A DNA stretch of 64,000 nt, from assembly GCF_041499725.1 (NCBI RefSeq), contig NZ_JBGQKW010000002.1, positions 37,643-101,642 of the forward strand, given 5' to 3'. Below the pieces are notes generated by a model. The model did no database searches and had not been told where the DNA came from. It saw nothing but the letters and a program-made list of their open reading frames with translations. This DNA comes from Sulfuricaulis sp. (GTDB taxonomy: Bacteria > Pseudomonadota > Gammaproteobacteria > Acidiferrobacterales > Sulfurifustaceae). The position numbers were made by a program, and so were the translations under genes. This document shows, in pieces, positions 9,231-23,223 of the stretch (position 1 is its first letter; the number at the start of each line of letters is the position of its first letter).

Positions 9231-10727
9231 ATGAAGAACGCTAAATTTTTCCACGGATCTTCGTTCTGGGTCGGAGCCCTGGCAATCCTGGGTCTTTTCT
9301 TGCTCGCACTGCCAAGCAGCGACGTGTTTGCAGCGCCCGCAACACGCAACGTAAGTGCTGACCATATCAAGACCGGATTCCCGCTGACCGGGGCACATGT
9401 CACGCTTCCTTGCGAGACTTGTCACGTTCAGGGCACTTTCAAAGGTACGCCCAAGAAATGCGAAACCTGCCATACCCAGGGCAGCCGCATTCAGACCGCC
9501 ACCTTCAAGCCTAATAACCACATCGCGACCACTCAGGCATGCGATCAATGCCACAGATCCACCACGTCATGGAACGTGGTGATGTTCAGTCACGTCGGCG
9601 TCATTCCTCATCAGTGCGCGCAATGCCATAACGGCACCGTCATCATGGGAAAACCGGCGAACCACGCGCCAACCACCGCACCTTGTGACACTTGCCATCG
9701 CACCACCACATGGATGAGCGTGGGCTTTAACCATGTCGCCGTAACGCCAGGCAGCTGCGCCACCTGTCACGTCCCGGGCGGCTCCGGCACGGCCAAGCCG
9801 TCTAACCACATGCCGACGACCCTCTCGTGCGATGCCTGTCATAACACGAGCACGTACATGACCTCGACCTTCACGCACTCAACCACGCAAGGTGTTCTAC
9901 CCGGTCAATGCAGCACCTGCCACAATGGTTCATACACCCAGTGGAACGCGCTCGGCAAAATACCGAACCACGTCGCCACCACGGCATCGTGCGATACCTG
10001 CCACACGGGTTACGTGACGTTCGCGAGCGCCGCCGGCTCCACGTTCAACCACACCGGCGTGGCCCCGGGTAGTTGCGCCACCTGTCACGTCCAGGGAGGC
10101 TCCGGCATGGCCAAGCCGACCAACCACATCCCGACGACCGTCAACGCGTGCGATGCCTGCCACAACACGAGCACATTCGCGACCTCAACATTCGCGCATT
10201 CCACCACGCAAGGCGTCCTGCCCGGGCAATGCGCGACTTCTGGATGTCACAGCGGGTCTTACACAGCGTGGAATGCCCTTGGCAAACCGTCGGGGCATAT
10301 CGCCACCACAGCCTCGTGCGACTCCTGCCACGCGGGTTTCACGACATTCGCCAATGGAGTGTTTAATCACACCGGCATAGCCCCGGGCACCTGCGCCACC
10401 TGCCACGTCCAGGGTGGATCGGGATTGGCCGCGCCGATCAATCACATCCCTTACCAGTCTCAGTTGGTTAACGGCGCCAGCATGAGCTGCGATGCCTGCC
10501 ACACAAGCACGACCAGTTTTACGGCTGAGAGGATGAATCACAACAATAGCCTGGGTAATGGCGCGGGCTGGTGCAAAAGCTGCCATCAGAGTGGTACGAG
10601 CTTCCTCGGCAATATGCAGCGGATGTCGTTGACCCATCAAAAGAGTACCGGGGTCACAGACTGCTCCCAGTCCGGCTGCCACCGGCCTTTGGGTAACACG
10701 GGTAGCGCCTACACGAAATGGAACTGA
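9231..10727 (+). CDS. Secreted multiheme c-type cytochrome, 15 CxxCH + 2 CX4CH
   Basis: ATG 9231 with GAGGA RBS; signal peptide (...DVFA/A); Thr/Ser/Gly/Asn-rich repeats with FNH/FxH distal His motifs. Confidence 0.92.
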   Translation: MKNAKFFHGSSFWVGALAILGLFLLALPSSDVFAAPATRNVSADHIKTGFPLTGAHVTLPCETCHVQGTFKGTPKKCETCHTQGSRIQTATFKPNNHIATTQACDQCHRSTTSWNVVMFSHVGVIPHQCAQCHNGTVIMGKPANHAPTTAPCDTCHRTTTWMSVGFNHVAVTPGSCATCHVPGGSGTAKPSNHMPTTLSCDACHNTSTYMTSTFTHSTTQGVLPGQCSTCHNGSYTQWNALGKIPNHVATTASCDTCHTGYVTFASAAGSTFNHTGVAPGSCATCHVQGGSGMAKPTNHIPTTVNACDACHNTSTFATSTFAHSTTQGVLPGQCATSGCHSGSYTAWNALGKPSGHIATTASCDSCHAGFTTFANGVFNHTGIAPGTCATCHVQGGSGLAAPINHIPYQSQLVNGASMSCDACHTSTTSFTAERMNHNNSLGNGAGWCKSCHQSGTSFLGNMQRMSLTHQKSTGVTDCSQSGCHRPLGNTGSAYTKWN

Positions 10728-10781: not shown

Positions 10782-11282
10782 ATGAAGAATCCGCTACTCG
10801 GGGTCGCCCTGCTGTTCATGGCATTTACCAGCTTGGGTATCGCACGCGCCCAAGACAACACCATCCTGGATGACGTGGATACCTCGGTAGAATCCGAGTG
10901 GGCGCGGATTAGTATCCATTTTTCTTTGCCGGTGAACTACGTACGCCATTCTCCGCAAGAGCGCGGACAGTTACTGCAGATATTTTTTACCATTGCCTTC
11001 CTGGAAGCACAAAACATCAGCCTGCGGGAAGAAGTCCGGAATGTGCCCGCCACGCCCGTCATGCCCGCCACCACTATCACATACCAGCCGCCCCTGTCTC
11101 TCAATTTTCAGCGTGAGCCGTCATCGCTCCTGGTGCGTTTCGATCGTGTTGTCAATTACGATGTCCGGCCGGGAGATGACCATCGCAGTATCGTGATTTA
11201 TTTACCCATTGCGCCAAGGGATACCAAACCGGCCAATACGGCCAAGGACAAACCGGTGGGAAAGGACAGTCCGGCTAAATAA
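10782..11282 (+). CDS. Small secreted protein of unknown function (AMIN-like beta domain suspected)
   Basis: AGGA RBS, signal peptide ending A-R-A, alternating beta-strand pattern; between cytochrome and porin. Confidence 0.7.
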   Translation: MKNPLLGVALLFMAFTSLGIARAQDNTILDDVDTSVESEWARISIHFSLPVNYVRHSPQERGQLLQIFFTIAFLEAQNISLREEVRNVPATPVMPATTITYQPPLSLNFQREPSSLLVRFDRVVNYDVRPGDDHRSIVIYLPIAPRDTKPANTAKDKPVGKDSPAK

Positions 11283-11315: not shown

Positions 11316-13916
11316 TTGAGAATAACCATCATGTGGGCTGTTACCCTCGTTGTGCTTGTTTTTTTGTTGGTACATTTTTCACTCGCAACCCCCGCTCAGG
11401 CTCAATCCGATGAAAAGATCAGCCCTGATATCGAAACTGACGCAAGAACCGAAAAACATTTCGTGGTGACACTGCGCAGCAGCTTCACGCCGATTTCGGA
11501 CAAACAGGCCAAGCGCGACTTCCCGGACAGCCCGGTTTATCTAATTCAGAGCAAGGCGTTTGATAAGACTGTCTATCTCGTGCGCGCGGGTTTTTTCGAA
11601 AACTATGTCGATGCCACGGCGTTTCGCGAGCGCGCGCTATCCAAATATCCCGCGGCACAGGTCTCCGAAATCACGCGCAACGAATATCTCACCATCCAAC
11701 GCACATTACCGGCCCCGAAACCGGGCGCACCGACAATAATGGCTAAAAAGATCGGGCCCAAACTGACGCCCTTGGCGCCACCCGCGCCCATCCCTGTACC
11801 GGTACCCTCGGCACCCGCCCCTGTGCCAGCACCACCGGCCAGCGCGGGTGTATTCTCGCCCAAGGCTCTTTACGCCATTTTGCTTGAGGAAAGCAGTCAA
11901 GCCGCTCCGGCGGCGCGCGCGCCGCTGCCGGCATCGCTAAAAAACTACCGTCTGTACACCACCCAAACACGCGACAAGAACAAAATCTTTTACCAGTTAA
12001 AACTCGGGTTCTTTGAAAATGAGCAAGACGTCTATGCCGCACGCAAGCAGCTGAAAGATATCTATCCAAACACGAAAGTGATCCATACCGCCTTGAACGA
12101 ACAGAAAGACTCGGTACGCACCGCCTTAAGCACGCCCACCGTGTTGCCGTCAGTCGTAGCGCCGGTACCGAAAGTGTCACCGGGCGCTGTCGCAAAAGTG
12201 CCAGTGCCGGCCCCGATCCTGCCTGCCGCTGTCCCGGAAATCACGCCGAGCGCTACGGCAACACCCGCAAGCTCCTACGATCGTGATGCCCTCGTGTTGC
12301 TGGACAAAGGCCGTGCGGCACTCGCGCGCGGCGATAACAATGTCGCCATTGCCACGCTCGATCAATTGCTACGACTGCCGCCGAATCGCTATTCCCAGGA
12401 CGCGCAGGAACTGATCGGCCTCGCCCGCCAGCGTGCCGGGGAAACCCTGGCGGCACGCAAGGAATACGAGCTTTATCTTCACCTTTACCCGACAGGAGAA
12501 GGCTCGGACCGCGTGCGCCAGCGTATCGCCACGCTCGATGCCACGATTACGACAACACCTTCTGCCGCGCTCAAAGCCGTCAAGCCGCGTATGGAAGCGC
12601 AATCCACCATCGTTGGAAATCTGTCGCAGTATTACTACCACGGCGCCAGCAAACTGGACAGCACGACGCTGACCCCCACCGCCAACACACAAAATCAGGC
12701 CAGCCTGACACAGACCGACCAAAGCTCGCTCGTGACCAGTCTCAACTTTTTGCACCGTTACCGCAGCGAGGATTACGACAACCGTCTGGTGATACGCGAC
12801 ACCTTCACCAAGAACTTCCTGCAGGGCCAGGAGGATACCAATCGTCCCAGCGCCATTTACTACGAGCTCAAGGACCGCAAGCTCGACTATTCGGCACGCG
12901 TCGGCCGCCAACCCGGCGGTTCCAGCGGCGTGCTCGGGCGCTTTGACGGGATACTTGCCGGCTATAACTTCTCGCCCAAATGGCGGGTCAACGTCGTGGG
13001 CGGTATACCAACCGATATCTCATACGACTCGCATTTGCACTTCCTCGGCACAGGAATCGACATCGGCCCGTTTGCCGAGCACTGGGGCGGCGGCTTGTAC
13101 ACGATCGAACAGAAGGTGGACGACGTCACGGACCGTCATGCCGTGGGCAGCGAAATCCGCTATTTCAGCCAGGTATTCACCCTGTACGGGCTGTTCGACT
13201 ATGACACGGAATTCAAGACCTCGAACATTGCCATGGTGCAAAGCAACTGGACCGCGACCAGCGGTACGTCTGTACACGCCTTGTTCGACAGGCGCAAAAC
13301 ACCGTCGTTGTCGCTCACCAATGCTTTGCAAGGAGAATCCGACACGTCGATCAAATCGCAGCTCCAGACAAAAACCTATGAGCAGCTCAAACAACAGGCG
13401 CTCAACCTGACATCCACGACGGATCTGCACAGCGTGGGAATCTCACAACCATTGAGTACGCGCTGGCAGGCGGGATTCGACGTACAGTCGGCGCACACCT
13501 CGAGCACCGCGGGCTCCGTGAATCAGCCGGCCCAGCCGGATACCGGCACCATCTACACGTATACCGGAAATCTCATCGGTACCGGCATCTTCACGCAGCG
13601 CGATGTTAATGTGTTCAGCATCAGCCACATCGTTGGCCCGACATTCGACGGTAATTCGTATTCCTTGACCAACCGCCTGCTCTGGGGTCCAAGCTGGAGC
13701 CTCGACACCACCCTGAGCTGGTACTCCCAACACGATTCGAGCACCAATACCGATGTGGATCGCTTCTCACCTTCGTTGAAGCCGAGTTACAAGTGGAAGC
13801 AGAACATCACCCTGGAGGCAGAATTTGGCGAGGAACATACGACTAACAAGGGTACGACGACCGAAGACACAAACCGGCGTCGGTACTGGTCGCTGGGTTA
13901 CCGTTGGGACTTCTGA
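11316..13916 (+). CDS. Outer-membrane beta-barrel porin with N-terminal SPOR-like domains, Pro-rich linkers and TPR
   Basis: Signal peptide; two YLVRAGFFEN/YQLKLGFFEN SPOR-like repeats; TPR-like AQELIGLARQRAG..YELYLHLYP; amphipathic strands; C-terminal LGYRWDF BamA signal. Confidence 0.8.
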   Translation: MRITIMWAVTLVVLVFLLVHFSLATPAQAQSDEKISPDIETDARTEKHFVVTLRSSFTPISDKQAKRDFPDSPVYLIQSKAFDKTVYLVRAGFFENYVDATAFRERALSKYPAAQVSEITRNEYLTIQRTLPAPKPGAPTIMAKKIGPKLTPLAPPAPIPVPVPSAPAPVPAPPASAGVFSPKALYAILLEESSQAAPAARAPLPASLKNYRLYTTQTRDKNKIFYQLKLGFFENEQDVYAARKQLKDIYPNTKVIHTALNEQKDSVRTALSTPTVLPSVVAPVPKVSPGAVAKVPVPAPILPAAVPEITPSATATPASSYDRDALVLLDKGRAALARGDNNVAIATLDQLLRLPPNRYSQDAQELIGLARQRAGETLAARKEYELYLHLYPTGEGSDRVRQRIATLDATITTTPSAALKAVKPRMEAQSTIVGNLSQYYYHGASKLDSTTLTPTANTQNQASLTQTDQSSLVTSLNFLHRYRSEDYDNRLVIRDTFTKNFLQGQEDTNRPSAIYYELKDRKLDYSARVGRQPGGSSGVLGRFDGILAGYNFSPKWRVNVVGGIPTDISYDSHLHFLGTGIDIGPFAEHWGGGLYTIEQKVDDVTDRHAVGSEIRYFSQVFTLYGLFDYDTEFKTSNIAMVQSNWTATSGTSVHALFDRRKTPSLSLTNALQGESDTSIKSQLQTKTYEQLKQQALNLTSTTDLHSVGISQPLSTRWQAGFDVQSAHTSSTAGSVNQPAQPDTGTIYTYTGNLIGTGIFTQRDVNVFSISHIVGPTFDGNSYSLTNRLLWGPSWSLDTTLSWYSQHDSSTNTDVDRFSPSLKPSYKWKQNITLEAEFGEEHTTNKGTTTEDTNRRRYWSLGYRWDF

Positions 13917-13926
13917 GGGAACGCGG

Positions 13927-14577
13927 CTAACGGACGTTGCGCTGATACTGCCGGTACAAGGTCAGGACGCGCGGGACGTACTGCAGCGTCTCGCGATAGG
14001 GAGGAATGCGGTTGCCGTACTGGACGATGGCGTCCTCGCCGGCATTATAGGCGGCCAGTGTCAGCGACAGGTCGTTGTTGAATTTCCGCATCAGGTCATG
14101 CAGGTACTTCGCCCCACCCTGGATATTCTCCGCCGGATCGTAGAGATTGCGCACCCCGTAACGTCGGGCGGTTTCGGGCATGAGCTGCATGAGGCCCACG
14201 GCGCCCTTGCGCGAAACGGCGTGCGGATCGAAACCGGATTCCGTCGCGATCATCGCCTGCAGCAGCGCCTGATCGAGACTGTGTTCGCGCGCCGCCTTTT
14301 CCACCAGCAGCGCATACCGATCAGAAGCGATGGGATACCCAGAGGAAGTTTTTACTGGCTTGTAAGCCGACACCCTGTACGGAGCGCGCGTCATTCCTGC
14401 GTAGCGCGGGTCGGAGGGCACGTTGGTGAAGTGGGTGACGCCGCTGATGTCCGTGAAGGTATAAACCGTCGCCCGCGCCGGTTCGGCCATCAGGACCGCG
14501 AAGCTGGCCACGATAATTGTCAAGGCGCCATGAAGCCGCATGGTTATTTTTGTGGGGTTTCCAGATTTCTTGCGCAC
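13927..14577 (-). CDS. Slt-family lytic transglycosylase with N-terminal DUF4124-like domain
   Basis: ATESGFDPHAVSRKGAVGLMQLMP and LAAYNAGE motifs; signal peptide. Confidence 0.9.
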   Translation of the reverse strand: MRKKSGNPTKITMRLHGALTIIVASFAVLMAEPARATVYTFTDISGVTHFTNVPSDPRYAGMTRAPYRVSAYKPVKTSSGYPIASDRYALLVEKAAREHSLDQALLQAMIATESGFDPHAVSRKGAVGLMQLMPETARRYGVRNLYDPAENIQGGAKYLHDLMRKFNNDLSLTLAAYNAGEDAIVQYGNRIPPYRETLQYVPRVLTLYRQYQRNVR

Positions 14578-14648
14578 GCTCGTAGTTTAACCCGCCACCG
14601 ACTGTCAAGCCAAACGCGCAATGGCGGCCAGCCTGTTTCCGGCGGGCT

Positions 14649-15530
14649 TTATGTTTTTCCCATTTTTTCGCGGGTCTTGCTGACAATACGGCGCAGATGC
14701 TCCGCCTCTTTGCTGTCCGCCGGCAGGGCTTTCAGCAACTGCTCCCATAATCCGAGCGCCTGCTGGTAATCGCCCTTCTGAAAAGCGGCCAAGCCGAGAA
14801 ACCACATGGCATCCTGGTTCTGCGGGTCAAGTTTCAAGAGCTTGCTGAAAAGAGAAAATACCGGCCCACCGGTATTCTGTGGGTCCATGTTGTAGAGGAA
14901 TGAGGCGTATTCCGCCACCACTTCCGGGTTATCGGGCATGAGCTTGTAAGCACGTGCGTAGGCGGCCTCCGCCGCCTCCTGACGACCCATCACCCCGTAG
15001 GCGCGCCCCAGCCGCAACCAGCCGGCGGCATCGTCCGGCTGCTCTTGCAGGCGCTTTTCCAGGCGCGCGACCATCTCCAGTGCCATCGGGGGCACGGAGG
15101 CATTGGCGGGTATTTCAGGATTGAAGAGATACGCCAGGGTGTTGCGCTGCCCCAGAGCGTAAAGACCGGCGGAGGTCAGGGGCAGCACCACGCCGAGGGC
15201 AACCAAGCCGATGGCCCAGCCGCGGCGCGATTCACGCTTGGCCTTCTTTGTTTTCTTCCCGGCACTGCCCAGCGTTTCAAGTTCACGCAGGGTCCGGGCG
15301 AGTTCGGCTTCGAGGCGGCGGCGCTCGTCATTCACCACGTCGGCGTCTATGTTGCGGTCGCCCTCTTCGATATCGAGTTCGTTGAGCTGCACGAGCAGGC
15401 GCTCACGCAACTGCTGCAATTGATCGCGGTGCTCGCCGTTGTCCTGCATGGCCGGCCGCGCCAGCGGACGCGCCACGTACCACACCGTGGCGATCACGAT
15501 CAGCACCGCGATGGCGGCGAACCAGATCAA
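14649..15530 (-). CDS. ccmI: Cytochrome c biogenesis protein CcmI/CycH (TPR)
   Basis: Two TM segments, LEKRLQEQPDDAAGWLRLGRAY TPRs; follows ccmH. Confidence 0.9.
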   Translation of the reverse strand: MIWFAAIAVLIVIATVWYVARPLARPAMQDNGEHRDQLQQLRERLLVQLNELDIEEGDRNIDADVVNDERRRLEAELARTLRELETLGSAGKKTKKAKRESRRGWAIGLVALGVVLPLTSAGLYALGQRNTLAYLFNPEIPANASVPPMALEMVARLEKRLQEQPDDAAGWLRLGRAYGVMGRQEAAEAAYARAYKLMPDNPEVVAEYASFLYNMDPQNTGGPVFSLFSKLLKLDPQNQDAMWFLGLAAFQKGDYQQALGLWEQLLKALPADSKEAEHLRRIVSKTREKMGKT

Positions 15531-15976
15531 GTGTTGCTCAGCTTACGCGCGCTGCGCACGCGCTCGGCGTCTTCCTTGGAAAGCGGCGGCGTCGGCGGCA
15601 TGGAGGGACGCAGCCGGCGGCGCAGGAAAACGAACCCGGACGCGCCCACGACGACGATCAGCGTCAGCGGTCCGGCCCACACGATGGCACCCGATCCGCG
15701 CTTGGGCGGGCTCATCAATACATAATCACCATAACGGTCGACAAAATATTTGACGATCTCGTCGCGCGATTTACCGGCCTGAACCTGCTCGCGGATGATG
15801 GCGCGCATGTCACGCGCCAGATCGGCGTTGGATTCCGACACCGGCTGGTTCTGGCACACGGTGCAGCGCAGATCCTTGGCGATGTCGAGCACCTGCCGCT
15901 CCAAGGGGTCTTCCGTCACTTGCGTGGCGAACACCGGCAAGGAAACGAGGAGAAATAGAAAGATCAGACACCGCAT
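15527..15976 (-). CDS. ccmH: Cytochrome c biogenesis protein CcmH/CycL
   Basis: LRCTVCQNQ motif, RYGDYVLMSPP. Confidence 0.93.
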   Translation of the reverse strand: MRCLIFLFLLVSLPVFATQVTEDPLERQVLDIAKDLRCTVCQNQPVSESNADLARDMRAIIREQVQAGKSRDEIVKYFVDRYGDYVLMSPPKRGSGAIVWAGPLTLIVVVGASGFVFLRRRLRPSMPPTPPLSKEDAERVRSARKLSNT

Positions 15977-15982
15977 CAGGGA

Positions 15983-17980
<1,998 letters not shown>

Positions 17981-19077: not shown

Positions 19078-22000
19078 ATGTTCTTCATGGGACATCTATC
19101 GGCCTTTTCACCCTCAACACCACGGAAATTATTGCGCCCGATATCACGCGGCCTATATATCCTACTGTTGTCCGGCCTGTTGATTCCGTCCACCACTTTG
19201 GCTGACCCGCCACACTTGCCTAATGAATACTTCAACACCTCTGACGCGGCAAAAGCCGCGTGTGTGGCTAAACTGCCCTGGTATCAAGCGAACTACGGTT
19301 GGCCGAATGGATATAGTTGCGTGTGGACCCACGAGGGAAACTTCGCTGCGAAGTGGGCTGTATGGGATGACATTTTGAATGGTCCCACTCTGACTGCCTT
19401 ATTTAAGGCTATCTATCCGATAAGGCAATGTCCGCCTACTCAGAATTATGTTGCCCCTGGCGTCTGTACCATCCCACCGCCGAATAAAATCAATGCCTGC
19501 TCCGGCGATGCGATGAAGGGCAATCCCTGCAATGCGGCTACAGGCAACAAATTCCAAAGCGAGGTCGATCTGACGAGCGTTGATGGCGGTATTCCGATTA
19601 TCCGCTACTACAACAGCCAGCTTATGGTCGACGTCGGGTTTGGCGTCGGTTGGACCTCCTCGATATTGGGTAAGCGTCTTTACATCAACCCCACCACCGT
19701 ACAGGTAATGCGTGCAGACGGGCGCGGGGAGTCTTTCGTCTGCAACGGCGGTGCTTGCCAAGGCGATGCGGATACCCAGATCGCACTCACTCAGGATGCT
19801 AACGGCTACACCCTCACGATGGATAAGGACGGGGCGGTTGAGCGTTACGACACCGCCGGCAAGCTTGTCACCGAGACCGACCGCACCGGCAGAACCACAA
19901 GCTACAGTTACGACTACAGTTACGATACGTCTGGCCGGCTCGCCACCGTCACCGGCCCGTTTGGCCACCGCCTGACCTTGAGCTATGACGCAAACAACCA
20001 CATTTACCAAATTAATGGTGGTGCTCAATTCCCCCGCTATACGTACGATGCCAACAACAATCTAACGCGCGTCACTTACTACCCCGGCATGGGAACGATC
20101 TATCACTACGAGAATACTTCCTTTCCCCAGAATCTCACCGGCATTTCGTACTTCTACGCATCGATCACCTTCCGCTATGCCACCTACGCCTACGACGCAT
20201 TGGGCAAGGCGGTTTCGACGGAACATGCCTCTGGCGCGGAGCGGACCGCCTTCAGCTATGACTCGCCGAGCCAAACTACAGTCACCGACGCTGCCAATAC
20301 GCAAGAAGTCATGACTTTTGCCTCCAATCTTGGGGCAAAGGCACTCGTCTCAAAGGTGAATCAGAGTGACGGCAAGAGCGCGGTGCAGACCTTCGACGCC
20401 AATAACAACTTAACTTGCAAAAAGGACGAAGAAGGCAAGGTCACGACGTATACGTATAGCAGTACAAACCAAAAGCTCTCGATGACCGAAGGATTGGCGG
20501 GAACGTGTGATGCGCCCACGACGACGAGCGCGACCCGCACCACAACGTATAGTTATTTGTCCCCTACCCTCGATCTGCCCACGGTAATCCAGAGCCCGAG
20601 CGTCTACAGCGGACAAAACAAGACCACCACGATAACTTACGGCGATGCCGCGCATCCCACGCTTCCGACAATGATTATGCAGAGCGGCTTTACACCCAGC
20701 GCCACACCGGTCTCACGCAGCGTGGGGCTTACCTATAACAGCACTGGTCAAATCACATCGATCGATGGGCCACGCACGGATGTCAATGATGTCACGACCC
20801 TGGCCTACTACGACTGCGCCACGGCGGGAGCCTGCGGGCAGTTGCGCAGCATCACCAACGCTTTGGGACAGGTGACTACCTTCGACAGTTACGATGCGTA
20901 CGGCAAGCTATTGCAGATGACCGACGCCAACGGGTTACGTACCAGCTACGTTTACAGTCTTGCATACGACTATCTGGCCCGGGTAACTCAGATTACCCAA
21001 ACACCGCCGACAGGCAGCACGCGAACCACCCAATATCGATATCACCAGGCAGGCGGTGATCTGTTAACGGTATACTTCCCCGACGGCCGCACGCTCAGCT
21101 ACACATACAATGCCGCCCGCCAGCTCACGCGAGTGACCGATAACTTCAACAATTACGTTGCCTACAGCTATGATATTAAGGGCAACCGCATCAGCGAATA
21201 CACTTACAACTCCTCGAACGTCCTGACGCGCCAGATCGATCTCGCGTACGACATCAGAAACCACCTCTCATCGATTAACGCGGCGGGCTCGCTCACGCAG
21301 CAGATAAACGATGCCGTGGGCAACCTTACTCAACAAACCGATCCGAACAACAATCCCCCGTCGACAAACAGCTTCGATGCGCTAAATCGACTCATACAGA
21401 CGCTCAACAGCCTGGGCGGTACCACCAGTTACGCCTACGACCCGAACGACCGGCTGCAACAAGTCGTCGCGCCAAACAACGCCACGACCCAGTACCAATA
21501 CGACGATCTCGGCAATCTCCTCCAGGAAATCTCCGCGGACCGCGGCACCACGGTTTATACGTACGATAACGCCGGCAACGTTACGACCGTCTCCGACGCG
21601 AGAAGCATCCCGATATCCTACACCTACGATGCGCTCAACCGGGTCACGAGCATCGACTACCCCGGGACCACGGAAGATGTTACCTACACCTACGACAACT
21701 GCACCGCCGGCATCGGCCGGCTGTGCCAGGTCGCGGATGCCAGTGGCACCACGCAGTACAGCTACGATGCCTTTGGCAACGTCCTCACCCAGAGCAAGAC
21801 GGAGTTGGGCATCGTCTATACCACCAGCTACACCTACGATGCCTCAGACCGGATCAAGACGATCACTTACCCCGACAACCGCCTCGTGACCTATGCACGA
21901 AACGGCTTAGGGCAAATCACGTCTGTCAGCGCCACGGTGAGCGGCGTGGCCAAAACGCTCGCCAGCGCGCGGACCTACCGCGCGGATGGGTTACTGCTTA

Positions 22001-23223
22001 CCCAAAGCTACGGCAACGGGCTCAACGAGACCCGCACCTACGACCTGCAAGGCCGGCTTACGAATCAGTCCCTGGGAACCGCTGATACGCGGGTGTACGG
22101 TTATGACGCCAACGGCAACGTCACCAGCCGGCAGGGCCTCTTCCAGACGGGGAGTTACGGCTACGACGCGCTCGATCGGTTAATCCAAGACAGCATCACC
22201 TCGATTCCGGCGAGTACGGTAAACCTCGGCTACGACCCAAATGGGAATCGGACGAGCGATAGCAGTGGGAGCTATATCTACCTCAGCGCCTCGAACCGCC
22301 TGTCGCAATATCATGGCCAGACGATCACCCTGGACGCCGCGGGCAACACCGTGAGCGACGGGACGTACACCTACGCCTACAACAATGCCGGAGAGTTACA
22401 GTCTGTGAGCCAAGGCGCCGCCCTGGGGAGTTATGTTTACAACCACCTGCGCCAGCGTACTCGCAAGACCACCGCCTCGGGTACCACGGTCTACCACTAC
22501 GACATCCGCGGTAATCTGATCCTGGAGACAAGCTCGACCGGCACCTCGCAGGTTGCCTACATGTGGGCGGATACCCAACCGTTGGCGCAGATCACGAAGA
22601 GTGGCGGTACCGATACGCTGTCGTACTTGCATGCCGATCATGAAGGCACGCCGCGGCTGGCGACGAGCGCCACGAAGGCCGTGGTGTGGCGCTGGGAGGG
22701 AAATGCATTTGGGGATACCTCACCGACGGGGAGTGTGACGGTGAATCTGCGGTATGCGGGGATGTATGCGGATCAGGAGACTGGGTTGTACTATGTCTGG
22801 AATCGCTACTACGATCCTAAGACCGGTCGGTGGATCACTTCCGATCCCATCGGCTTAGCAGGCGGACTCAACACCTACGCGTATGTGGTGAATAATCCGT
22901 TAAGGTGGACGGATCCAGAGGGGACAGCAATCTGGGCGGTTCCGTTCGGTTGGAACTCGCCTAACGGTAACGTTAGACCAGGATTTAGCCTCCAAAAGCC
23001 GGGGTGTGATGTTGATGGTTCTGTCGGCTCTTGGATGAACAGAAAACCTTGCATTAGGAAGTGTTGTGATGAACATGATGATTGCTACAAAAAGTATGGG
23101 TGCAATGCATCCTCATGGAGAGGTAGACTCTATAGTTCATGCGATATCTGCAATATGAAAGTGATGTGGTGCATAATTACCGCTGATACGTCCGACAACG
23201 GGTGCAGCTGCACGAAGCAATAG
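19078..23223 (+). CDS. Rhs/YD-repeat polymorphic toxin with signal peptide, DUF6531-like domain and Cys-rich PLA2-like C-terminal tip
   Basis: GNPCNAATGNKFQ (DUF6531-like), many YxYD repeats, RYYDP..GRW...DPIGLAGGLNTYAYVVNNPLRWTDPEG core end; tip CCDEHDDCY. Confidence 0.92.
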   Translation: MFFMGHLSAFSPSTPRKLLRPISRGLYILLLSGLLIPSTTLADPPHLPNEYFNTSDAAKAACVAKLPWYQANYGWPNGYSCVWTHEGNFAAKWAVWDDILNGPTLTALFKAIYPIRQCPPTQNYVAPGVCTIPPPNKINACSGDAMKGNPCNAATGNKFQSEVDLTSVDGGIPIIRYYNSQLMVDVGFGVGWTSSILGKRLYINPTTVQVMRADGRGESFVCNGGACQGDADTQIALTQDANGYTLTMDKDGAVERYDTAGKLVTETDRTGRTTSYSYDYSYDTSGRLATVTGPFGHRLTLSYDANNHIYQINGGAQFPRYTYDANNNLTRVTYYPGMGTIYHYENTSFPQNLTGISYFYASITFRYATYAYDALGKAVSTEHASGAERTAFSYDSPSQTTVTDAANTQEVMTFASNLGAKALVSKVNQSDGKSAVQTFDANNNLTCKKDEEGKVTTYTYSSTNQKLSMTEGLAGTCDAPTTTSATRTTTYSYLSPTLDLPTVIQSPSVYSGQNKTTTITYGDAAHPTLPTMIMQSGFTPSATPVSRSVGLTYNSTGQITSIDGPRTDVNDVTTLAYYDCATAGACGQLRSITNALGQVTTFDSYDAYGKLLQMTDANGLRTSYVYSLAYDYLARVTQITQTPPTGSTRTTQYRYHQAGGDLLTVYFPDGRTLSYTYNAARQLTRVTDNFNNYVAYSYDIKGNRISEYTYNSSNVLTRQIDLAYDIRNHLSSINAAGSLTQQINDAVGNLTQQTDPNNNPPSTNSFDALNRLIQTLNSLGGTTSYAYDPNDRLQQVVAPNNATTQYQYDDLGNLLQEISADRGTTVYTYDNAGNVTTVSDARSIPISYTYDALNRVTSIDYPGTTEDVTYTYDNCTAGIGRLCQVADASGTTQYSYDAFGNVLTQSKTELGIVYTTSYTYDASDRIKTITYPDNRLVTYARNGLGQITSVSATVSGVAKTLASARTYRADGLLLTQSYGNGLNETRTYDLQGRLTNQSLGTADTRVYGYDANGNVTSRQGLFQTGSYGYDALDRLIQDSITSIPASTVNLGYDPNGNRTSDSSGSYIYLSASNRLSQYHGQTITLDAAGNTVSDGTYTYAYNNAGELQSVSQGAALGSYVYNHLRQRTRKTTASGTTVYHYDIRGNLILETSSTGTSQVAYMWADTQPLAQITKSGGTDTLSYLHADHEGTPRLATSATKAVVWRWEGNAFGDTSPTGSVTVNLRYAGMYADQETGLYYVWNRYYDPKTGRWITSDPIGLAGGLNTYAYVVNNPLRWTDPEGTAIWAVPFGWNSPNGNVRPGFSLQKPGCDVDGSVGSWMNRKPCIRKCCDEHDDCYKKYGCNASSWRGRLYSSCDICNMKVMWCIITADTSDNGCSCTKQ

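What the first reader, a model, noticed from the sequence alone, without database searches (positions are those of the whole stretch)
9231..10727. Secreted multiheme cytochrome with two CX4CH sites and nearly uncharged Thr/Ser repeats
Seen: 15 CxxCH plus CATSGCH and CSQSGCH. CATSGCH sits where CSTCH sits in the sister repeat (STTQGVLPGQ-C..CH), which supports it being a real heme site. The body is a repeated four-heme unit rich in T/S/G/N/A with few charges, unlike the Lys-rich 24-heme partner. Its first module (DHIKTGFPLTGAH..CETCH..FKGTPKKCETCH) copies the partner's repeat unit. Inference: an extracellular rod or filament whose N-terminal module continues the heme chain through the porin, possibly glycosylated or polymerising.
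Basis: partly seen in the sequence, partly recalled or inferred. Interest (0 to 1): 0.66.

Follow-up and report, generated by a model that had tools for sequence, protein, structure and literature searches.

The report
PCC3 outer 17-haem cytochrome wire
This gene encodes the threonine/serine-rich, 17-haem outer cytochrome of a "PCC3" porin-cytochrome electron conduit, a gene cluster described from genomes in 2017 but never tested at the bench, here in a sulfur-oxidising Sulfuricaulis bacterium; it is an ordinary member of that family.

Summary
ORF 9231-10727 (+) encodes a 498-aa protein with a Sec signal peptide, 15 CxxCH and 2 CX4CH motifs. All 34 Cys lie in those motifs. Only 7% of residues are charged and 50% are T/S/G/A/N. 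It has three 4-haem units and an N-terminal module like the repeat of the 24-haem Lys-rich neighbour.

It is not a new kind of protein. It is the "extracellular" multihaem cytochrome of a PCC3 cluster (He et al. 2017; Hoover et al. 2023). The cluster holds an inner-membrane protein with two WX3HX13H motifs and SGXXG, a 24-haem periplasmic cytochrome, this cytochrome and a large outer-membrane protein. The family's T/S/A/G richness, repeats, variable haem number and predicted linear shape are already published.

What this analysis adds:
- The last haem site is non-canonical in 118 of 121 close homologues (CX4CH in 109), within a conserved terminal cap, C-S-x-S-G-C-H-[RK]-P-L-G...Y..W.
- The internal CX4CH recurs at one repeat position.
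- Conserved distal His match the 17 motifs one to one.
- Congeners carry 13, 17, 21 or 25 haems.
- The cluster sits inside the genome's only ccm operon.

Polymerisation and glycosylation have no support here. Localisation and function remain untested. Verdict: new member of a known kind, interest 0.3.

The parts
9231..10727 (+). Gene for the 498-aa, 17-haem T/S/G/A/N-rich cytochrome (the PCC3 'extracellular' MHC)
9231..9332 (+). Sec signal peptide (aa 1-34, predicted cleavage VFA|AP; no lipobox)
   Evidence: read from the sequence
9360..9554 (+). N-terminal c7-type trihaem module (haems 1-3, aa 44-108), homologous to the partner's repeat unit
   Evidence: (Cytochrom_CIII hit at 55-112)
9699..10004 (+). 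Four-haem unit 1 (haems 6-9)
10005..10331 (+). Four-haem unit 2 (haems 10-13), which contains the internal CX4CH
10230..10250 (+). Internal CX4CH site CATSGCH (haem 12), in the place of CSTCH of unit 1
   Evidence: C334, C339 and H340 conserved in at least 90% of sequences
10332..10682 (+). Four-haem unit 3 (haems 14-17), diverged into the terminal cap
10503..10724 (+). Family-conserved C-terminal cap: haem 16, terminal CX4CH haem 17 (CSQSGCH, nt 10662-10682) and the RPLG..G..Y..W tail
7408..9207 (+). 24-haem Lys-rich periplasmic PCC3 cytochrome (8 c7-type trihaem units); the start codon is uncertain (7384 or 7408)
6557..7387 (+). PCC3 inner-membrane protein with WX3HX13H at aa 100 and 282 and SGIIG at aa 141 (numbering of the 6464 ORF); putative di-haem b
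10782..11282 (+). Small secreted protein that matches the N-terminal domain (aa 30-136) of the fused Rhodoferax PCC3 outer-membrane protein
11331..13916 (+). PCC3 outer-membrane protein: SPOR-like and TPR periplasmic part, then a C-terminal barrel ending ...YRWDF
4918..6219 (-). Divergent 2x[4Fe-4S]/FAD pyridine-nucleotide-disulfide-type oxidoreductase that recurs beside PCC3 clusters
1171..4336 (+). ccmA, ccmB, ccmC, (ccmD), ccmE and ccmG: one half of the genome's only System I haem-attachment set
14649..17980 (-). ccmI, ccmH and ccmF: the other half of the only ccm set

Best explanation
The ORF is the outer ('extracellular') multihaem c-type cytochrome of a PCC3-type porin-cytochrome conduit in a Sulfuricaulis genome. 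Shown: the motifs, the family membership, the synteny and the conservation pattern. Inferred, step by step: (1) The apoprotein is exported by Sec. (2) The cell's single System I Ccm machinery, whose genes flank the cluster, attaches 17 haems, two of them at CX4CH sites. (3) Each haem is bis-His ligated, using the one conserved His that lies 7-12 residues upstream of every motif. (4) The chain is modular: a c7-type trihaem adaptor (haems 1-3), haems 4-5, three 4-haem units that are each a doubled dihaem unit, and a cap whose last haem has the non-canonical CX4CH spacing. (5) At 27 residues per haem the protein can only be a thin haem wire, roughly 15 nm long by analogy with MtrA and GSU1996. 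(6) The 24-haem partner spans the periplasm and the barrel of the 862-aa outer-membrane protein. This protein extends the chain on the cell surface, and the di-haem-b-like membrane protein links the chain to the quinone pool. (7) Length is set genetically by the number of 4-haem units, not by polymerisation. (8) The direction is probably electron uptake from Fe(II), minerals or other solid donors in this lithoautotroph, but that is unknown.
For: - Motifs and composition.
- Pfam class III/c7 hits above cut-off: Cytochrome_C7 81.1 bits, c3_2 47.9, CIII 44.5.
- The cluster matches the PCC3 definition of He et al. 2017. The inner-membrane protein has two WX3HX13H motifs and SGXXG. The periplasmic cytochrome has 24 haems. 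[quoted passage not shown]
- The whole cluster is homologous to one in Rhodoferax mekongensis: outer-membrane protein 31% identity over 696 columns (E 8e-100), inner-membrane protein 36%.
- 2608 word-indexed homologues and 3155 clusters at 50% identity.
- The terminal haem is CX4CH in 109 of 121 homologues and CX3CH in 9 more. Invariant positions are C478, S479, C483, H484, P486, L487, G488, G491, Y494 and W497.
- Non-canonical spacing occurs in 68% of last motifs against 3.2% of internal motifs.
- The internal CX4CH always reads C-x-x-[SA]-G-C-H, and 29 of 39 cases fall in the same unit class.
- C334, C339, H340 and H323 are conserved in at least 90% of sequences.
- There are 18 non-motif His for 17 motifs. 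The extra one, H127, is clade-specific.
- Cytochrome c3 carries two CXXXXCH motifs (PMC10454114), and CX4CH is a listed haem motif (PMC11492766).
- The genome has a single ccm set, flanking the cluster.
- Congeners carry 13, 17, 21 and 25 haems while the partner appears not to vary (24 haems where its gene is complete).
- AlphaFold2 with a 106-sequence alignment gave pLDDT 70 and only short helices at the haem motifs, as in multihaem wires.
- Hoover 2023 found PCC3 models 'long and mostly linear'.
- GspL is present, so a type II secretion route exists.
Against: - No PCC3 protein has been localised or assayed. The label 'extracellular' rests on PSORTb, CELLO and LocTree predictions.
- The protein has no lipobox, unlike MtrC and OmcA, so how it would reach and stay on the surface is unexplained.
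- The S. lithotrophicus homologue Slit_1448 was never detected in proteomes. The 48-, 86- and 191-residue tryptic fragments predicted for this protein would explain that.
- Foldseek found no PDB relative, and I could not measure the shape of the model.
- Haem occupancy of the CX4CH sites is inferred, not measured.
- I could not fetch Slit_1448 or the L. cholodnii reference, so homology to the named type examples is indirect.
Confidence: 0.75

Rival explanations
1. The cytochrome stays in the periplasm. It would act there as an electron store (capacitor) or as a second periplasmic wire, and the outer-membrane protein would serve another role.
For: It has only an SPase-I type signal and no lipobox. 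The extracellular label in the literature is purely predicted. The outer-membrane protein carries large periplasmic SPOR-like and TPR parts.
Against: The cluster already encodes a 24-haem periplasm-spanning cytochrome. The low-charge T/S/G/N composition contrasts sharply with that partner. The strict four-gene synteny with a large barrel holds across beta- and gammaproteobacteria. GspL is present.
Confidence: 0.15
2. Monomers join head to tail, with the conserved N-terminal c7 module docking on the conserved C-terminal CX4CH cap, to form an extracellular filament like OmcS, OmcE or OmcZ. The filament may be O-glycosylated on its Thr/Ser.
For: Both termini are more conserved than the middle: 0.61 and 0.68 against 0.47-0.49. 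That fits either a 'dock plus tip' design or a head-to-tail contact. Thr+Ser make up 25% of the mature protein.
Against: Length is varied within the gene, from 13 to about 133 haem motifs, which makes polymerisation unnecessary. Conserved distal His match the haems one to one, which leaves none for inter-subunit ligation. No sequence or fold match to OmcS, OmcE or OmcZ was found. No glycosylation gene or site was examined.
Confidence: 0.07
3. One or both CX4CH sites are degenerate and bind no haem, so the protein carries 15 or 16 haems.
For: CX4CH is rare among internal motifs in the family (81 of 3511), and occupancy was not measured.
Against: Cys, Cys and His are kept at both sites in at least 90% of homologues. 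The terminal site is nearly invariant. Each site has its own conserved upstream His. The motif form C-x-x-[SA]-G-C-H is stereotyped. Cytochrome c3 binds haem at two CXXXXCH sites.
Confidence: 0.05

Closest known systems
PCC3 'extracellular' multihaem cytochrome (He, Barco, Emerson & Roden 2017, PMC5566968; Hoover et al. 2023, PMC10734462), for example Slit_1448 of Sideroxydans lithotrophicus ES-1
   Same: The gene neighbourhood is the same: inner-membrane protein with two WX3HX13H motifs and SGXXG, a 21-27-haem periplasmic cytochrome, and a large outer-membrane protein. The T/S/A/G-rich, low-complexity repeats each carry haem sites. There are about 26-30 residues per haem. Haem number varies (10-35 in Gallionellaceae; a 15/17-haem cluster is listed). 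CX4CH motifs are counted as haem sites in those papers.
   Different: The host is a Sulfuricaulis (Acidiferrobacterales-type sulfur oxidiser), which does not occur in the main text or held supplementary files of He et al. 2017. The cluster lies inside the only ccm operon. The N-terminal domain of the outer-membrane protein is a separate gene. The points on the terminal CX4CH cap, the mostly odd haem counts (most often 4n+1) and the His:haem stoichiometry come from this analysis and do not appear in the passages of those papers that I read.
MtrC/OmcA outer-membrane decahaem cytochromes of the MtrCAB complex (Shewanella)
   Same: The proposed role is the same: the outer cytochrome of a porin-cytochrome conduit. 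A weak profile match exists to MtrC pentahaem domain II (E 1.7e-6; PF22113 34.4 bits).
   Different: There is no lipoprotein signal, no beta-barrel domains I/III and no staggered-cross haem layout detectable. The haem count is 17 and variable, and the composition is different. It is not a family member.
c7/c3 (class III) multihaem repeats, such as the dodecahaem GSU1996 'nanowire' of Geobacter built from c7-type domains, and tetrahaem cytochrome c3
   Same: It gives Pfam Cytochrome_C7, c3_2 and CIII hits above cut-off. It has bis-His-type motif spacing, a modular repeat design and a similar residue-to-haem ratio. CX4CH sites occur as in c3.
   Different: After the first trihaem module the repeat is a dihaem/tetrahaem unit, not a trihaem one. 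The protein is almost uncharged, and it belongs to a porin cluster. phmmer found no PDB relative.
OmcS/OmcE/OmcZ polymerised cytochrome filaments
   Same: They share the proposed function of long-range extracellular haem wires.
   Different: Those are polymers of small 4-8-haem subunits. Here the length is encoded in a single chain. No sequence or fold similarity was found.

Membership tests
PCC3 porin-cytochrome cluster (He et al. 2017) | [quoted passage not shown] | tested here: met
   The order is IMP 6557-7387, 24-haem MHC 7408-9207, 17-haem MHC 9231-10727, (small ORF), OMP 11331-13916, all on the + strand. The same order occurs in L011, L012 and L014.
PCC3 porin-cytochrome cluster (He et al. 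2017) | IMP of about 300 aa with two WX3HX13H motifs and an SGXXG motif | tested here: met
   WFRVH..x13..H at aa 100, WHILH..x13..H at aa 282 and SGIIG at aa 141. It is 36% identical to the Rhodoferax cluster IMP and 81% identical to S. limicola SCL_0893.
PCC3 porin-cytochrome cluster (He et al. 2017) | IMP has five transmembrane helices | tested here: inconclusive
   A crude Kyte-Doolittle scan found 4 clear segments. The His-bearing helix around aa 100-118 fell below the threshold.
PCC3 porin-cytochrome cluster (He et al. 2017) | Extracellular MHC rich in T/S/A/G, with internal repeats that each carry a haem site and a low residue-to-haem ratio | tested here: met
   T+S+G+A+N = 50%, 498/17 = 29 aa per haem, three 4-haem units.
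PCC3 porin-cytochrome cluster (He et al. 2017) | Periplasmic MHC with about 21-27 haems built of repeats | tested here: met
   24 CxxCH in 8 trihaem units. L. cholodnii also has 24 haems in 8 repeats.
PCC3 porin-cytochrome cluster (He et al. 2017) | Sequence homology to the named type examples (Slit_1446-1449; L. cholodnii SP-6) | not tested
   The reference sequences could not be fetched. Homology was shown only to clusters of the same layout in Rhodoferax, Piscinibacter-labelled and other proteobacterial records.
PCC3 porin-cytochrome cluster (He et al. 2017) | Surface location of the T/S-rich MHC and electron transfer across the outer membrane | not testable with these tools
   This is only predicted in the literature.
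MtrC/OmcA family | Lipoprotein signal peptide with a lipobox Cys | tested here: not met
   The N-terminal 60 residues contain no Cys, and all 34 Cys lie in haem motifs.
MtrC/OmcA family | Four-domain layout with two pentahaem domains and two beta-barrel domains | tested here: not met
   There is only a marginal PF22113 hit (34.4 bits, no stretch passing on its own). The model has no strand-rich regions. Foldseek found no hit.
Class III (c3/c7) multihaem cytochrome superfamily | Profile match above the curated cut-off, with bis-His haem motif spacing | tested here: met
   PF14522 81.1 bits (cut-off 24.8), PF14537 47.9 (25), PF02085 44.5 (22.9). One conserved His accompanies each motif.
OmcS/OmcE-type polymerising nanowire cytochromes | Homology to the filament subunits, and a spare ligand for inter-subunit haem coordination | tested here: not met
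   No PDB sequence or profile hit to them. No Foldseek hit. No conserved surplus His.

The most novel reading that the evidence does not exclude
The two conserved ends may be a matched pair. The N-terminal c7-type module of one molecule would dock on the C-terminal cap of the next, or of the periplasmic partner. That cap carries the CX4CH haem and is nearly invariant across the family. The conduit could then extend beyond one chain as a head-to-tail haem filament, with the odd-spaced terminal haem as the specialised junction or the electron entry site. This would be a second, unrelated route to cytochrome nanowires, combined with genetically tunable subunit length (13 to more than 100 haems).
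Probability: 0.1. Interest if true: 0.7.

Novelty: new member of a known kind. Interest (0 to 1): 0.3.

Why it matters
PCC3 is one of the most widespread predicted extracellular electron conduits in Proteobacteria: this analysis found more than 3000 sequence clusters, some with over 100 haem motifs. Nine years after its description it still has no biochemical, structural or genetic test. This copy adds three things. It shows the system in Sulfuricaulis sulfur oxidisers, including the cultured S. limicola, whose IMP SCL_0893 is 81% identical, which gives a tractable host. It is a short 17-haem member, suitable for expression and structure work. It also yields concrete family rules to test: an odd-spaced terminal haem cap, one distal His per haem, length steps of four haems, and linkage to ccm/CcmI and an Fe-S flavoprotein. 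As a discovery in itself it is incremental.

Tried and rejected
1. AlphaFold2 with a 36-sequence alignment gave pLDDT 50.7, which is unusable. With 106 sequences it reached pLDDT 70 and pTM 0.38. The tool returns no coordinates, so rod versus globule could not be measured.
3. phmmer against PDB sequences found nothing. The profile search gave only weak MtrC and MtrA matches.
4. I looked for 'Rosetta-stone' fusions of a Lys-rich c7 part followed by a T/S-rich part, to learn which end abuts the partner. The candidates P0234, P0282 and P0180 turned out to be plain trihaem-repeat proteins of mixed composition, not fusions.
5. The genome-contig scan returned only 4 loci, none of them named usefully. 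The organism was identified instead from CcmF cluster members named Sulfuricaulis and from SCL_0893.
7. The idea that the flanking Ccm is an extra set dedicated to this cluster was rejected. It is the only ccm set in a 99.98%-complete genome.
8. Assembly collapse of the repeats was considered. It is unlikely, because the units are only 65-83% identical at the DNA level and an independent JGI assembly (P0014, 96% identity) shows the same 17-motif pattern.
9. The supplementary tables of He et al. that list PCC3 hosts are held only as images.
Full report
**Observation**

The ORF at 9231-10727 (+) translates to 498 residues. It carries 15 CxxCH, no CX3CH and two CX4CH motifs. The CX4CH motifs are CATSGCH at aa 334-340 (nt 10230-10250) and CSQSGCH at aa 478-484 (nt 10662-10682). 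All 34 cysteines lie in these 17 motifs.

ATG 9231 follows a GAGGAA Shine-Dalgarno sequence. Residues 1-34 form a Sec-type signal ending VFA|AP, with no lipobox.

The mature protein is 50% T/S/G/A/N and only 7% D/E/K/R, with pI 8.4. The upstream neighbour has 24 CxxCH in eight trihaem units and 14.4% Lys.

When the sequence is cut at each haem motif, haems 6-9, 10-13 and 14-17 line up as three copies of one four-haem unit. The DNA period is 318 nt at 65-83% identity. Haem 12 (CATSGCH) sits exactly where haem 8 (CSTCH) sits, after the same STTQGVLPGQ context.

The first module, DHIKTGFPLTGAH..CETCH..FKGTPKKCETCH, matches the partner's repeat.

**What it is**

Pfam places the protein in the class III / c7 cytochrome superfamily: PF14522 81.1 bits, PF14537 47.9 bits and PF02085 44.5 bits, all above their cut-offs.

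The surrounding genes are, in order:
- a roughly 276-300-aa membrane protein (6557-7387);
- the 24-haem cytochrome;
- this cytochrome;
- a 166-aa secreted protein (10782-11282);
- an 862-aa outer-membrane protein with SPOR-like and TPR parts and a barrel ending ...YRWDF.

This is the "PCC3" cluster defined by He et al. 2017 (PMC5566968). [quoted passage not shown] The membrane protein here has WFRVH-x13-H at aa 100, WHILH-x13-H at aa 282 and SGIIG at aa 141.

He et al. already reported several features of the extracellular MHCs:
- they are rich in Thr, Ser, Ala and Gly;
- they are built of repeats that each hold a haem site;
- they have very low residue-to-haem ratios;
- CX3CH and CX4CH motifs were counted as haem sites.

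Hoover et al. 2023 (PMC10734462) found 10-35 haems in the extracellular subunit, including a 15/17-haem cluster, and 21-27 haems in the periplasmic subunit of Gallionellaceae. Their AlphaFold models were "long and mostly linear".

As of 2025-2026 PCC3 is still described as predicted and functionally unverified. The ES-1 extracellular subunit, Slit_1448, was never seen in proteomes.

**Organism and distribution**

CcmF from the window clusters at 90% identity or more with proteins named Sulfuricaulis sp.. The membrane protein is 81% identical to SCL_0893 of Sulfuricaulis limicola. The genome is 2.84 Mb and 99.98% complete.

Sixteen of 41 related genomes have a homologue. Among congeners the outer cytochrome has 13, 17, 21 or 25 haems. 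The partner has 24 haems where its gene is complete (L011, L012) and at least 21 in loci cut off by a locus end.

The family is very large. There are 2608 word-indexed hits and 3155 clusters at 50% identity, some up to 3949 aa long and one with 133 haem motifs.

The whole cluster is homologous to one in Rhodoferax mekongensis. The outer-membrane proteins are 31% identical (E 8e-100) and the membrane proteins 36% identical. The small ORF matches residues 30-136 of the fused Rhodoferax outer-membrane protein (E 3e-6).

**New details on the two CX4CH sites**

- *Terminal site.* In 109 of 121 close homologues the last haem motif is CX4CH, and in 9 more it is CX3CH. The remaining three look truncated. 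The tail C-S-x-S-G-C-H-[RK]-P-L-G-x2-G-x2-Y-x2-W is close to invariant.
- *Enrichment at the last position.* Across diverse T/S-rich representatives, non-canonical spacing occurs in 68% of last motifs and 3.2% of internal ones.
- *Internal site.* The internal CX4CH is sporadic but stereotyped. It always reads C-x-x-[SA]-G-C-H, and 29 of 39 cases fall in the "…PG-x-C" class of unit. C334, C339, H340 and the upstream H323 are conserved in at least 90% of sequences, whichever spacing is used.
- *His stoichiometry.* Every motif has one His 7-12 residues upstream. The mature protein has 18 non-motif His for 17 motifs. The extra one, H127, replaces the Gly of the usual PGxC and is clade-specific.
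- *Precedent.* Tetrahaem cytochrome c3 has two CXXXXCH haem sites (PMC10454114), and CX4CH is a listed haem-binding motif (PMC11492766).

Together these points make 17 bis-His haems the most likely reading. They leave no conserved spare ligand for OmcS-style inter-subunit coordination.

**Architecture**

Haem counts in the family are mostly odd, and most often 4n+1 (13, 17, 21, 25, 29). The four-haem unit is itself a doubled dihaem unit: [F-x-H…PG-x-C-x-x-CH] plus [P-x-N-H-I-x-T-T-x-x-C-D-x-CH].

Haems 1-3 form one c7-type trihaem module of the kind that is repeated in the partner and in related giant cytochromes.

Conservation is highest in the C-terminal cap (0.68) and the N-terminal module (0.61), and lowest in the repeated middle (0.47-0.49). 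Both ends therefore have specific roles, and the middle acts as a spacer of adjustable length. Which end faces the porin is open. A search for informative gene fusions found none.

**Structure**

AlphaFold2 gave pLDDT 50.7 with 36 sequences and 70.0 (pTM 0.38) with 106 sequences. The model has only short helices at the haem motifs.

Foldseek found no PDB match at E <= 10. Sequence searches of the PDB gave only weak profile hits to MtrC domain II and MtrA. The shape could not be measured here.

**Context**

The cluster lies between ccmABC(D)EG (1171-4336, +) and slt-ccmI-ccmH-ccmF (13927-17980, -). This is the genome's only ccm set, so it is not a dedicated extra copy.

Other PCC3 loci are also next to maturation genes. 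One is adjacent to ccmABCDEFGH (Rhodoferax). Two carry a CcmI/CycH-like TPR gene and the same Fer4/Pyr_redox flavoprotein. The main text of He et al. 2017 contains none of the words ccm, maturation, biogenesis, TPR, FAD or pyridine nucleotide.

The genome also encodes an MtoA/MtrA-type decahaem cytochrome (TIGR03508, 284.9 bits) and GspL.

**Mechanism**

Shown: the motifs, family membership, synteny and conservation.

Inferred:
- Sec export, then Ccm-dependent attachment of 17 haems;
- a thin monomeric haem wire with about 27 residues per haem;
- a position at the outer face of the barrel, continuing the chain of the 24-haem partner;
- connection to the quinone pool through the di-haem-b-like membrane protein.

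The direction of electron flow and the physiological substrate are unknown.

**Rivals**
- A purely periplasmic location (0.15).
- Head-to-tail polymerisation and/or glycosylation (0.07).
- One or two empty CX4CH sites (0.05).

**Verdict**

This is a correct and careful reading of a protein that belongs to an already described, though still untested, family. It is a new member of a known kind, with interest 0.3.

Noticed in passing
window 1171-4336 (+) and 13927-17980 (-); L012 12923-18457; L014 15399-17918; L015 4366-8953: PCC3 clusters are repeatedly linked to cytochrome-maturation genes. Here the cluster splits the genome's only ccm set into two convergent halves. In Rhodoferax it abuts ccmABCDEFGH. 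In two other lineages a CcmI/CycH-like TPR gene sits inside the cluster. The main text of He et al. 2017 contains none of these words.
   Followed up: partly
window 4918-6219 (-); L011 3693-5000; L014 16626-17918; L015 4366-5670: A roughly 430-aa 2x[4Fe-4S] + FAD/NAD(P) pyridine-nucleotide-disulfide-type oxidoreductase accompanies PCC3 in four of the five contexts examined, including the window. It may be a fifth, undescribed component.
   Followed up: partly
window 10782-11282 (+): The small secreted ORF between the cytochrome and the outer-membrane protein matches residues 30-136 of the fused Rhodoferax PCC3 outer-membrane protein (E 3e-6). In Sulfuricaulis that N-terminal domain is therefore a separate gene. 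A 160-aa counterpart is present in L011.
   Followed up: partly
window 11331-13916 (+): The SPOR-like and TPR periplasmic region of the outer-membrane protein is conserved in the Rhodoferax PCC3 protein (the alignment starts at aa 186). It is a family feature, not a local oddity. A lytic transglycosylase gene (13927-14577, -) ends 10 bp after the stop codon of the outer-membrane protein gene.
   Followed up: partly
proteins P0141, P0145, P0158: Relatives of this cytochrome reach 3274-3949 aa with 124-133 haem motifs in a single predicted chain. That is above the 85 haems quoted as the maximum by He et al. 2017.
   Followed up: no
G000 contigs C66:482-1567 and C83:2069-4099: The same genome encodes an MtoA/MtrA-type decahaem cytochrome (TIGR03508, 284.9 bits) and a 9-haem cytochrome fused to a multi-helix membrane domain (MtoC/CbcL-like in layout). 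This sulfur oxidiser therefore carries two candidate extracellular electron-transfer routes.
   Followed up: partly
window 10503-10724 (aa 435 and 462): Two Met residues in the terminal cap, M435 and M462, are conserved in at least 90% of sequences, while Met is otherwise unconserved. One of the last two haems might be His/Met ligated, which would give it a higher potential.
   Followed up: no
window 19078-23223 (+): A 1381-aa Rhs-repeat protein (RHS_repeat, DUF6531) lies downstream of the ccm genes. It is unrelated to this finding.
   Followed up: no
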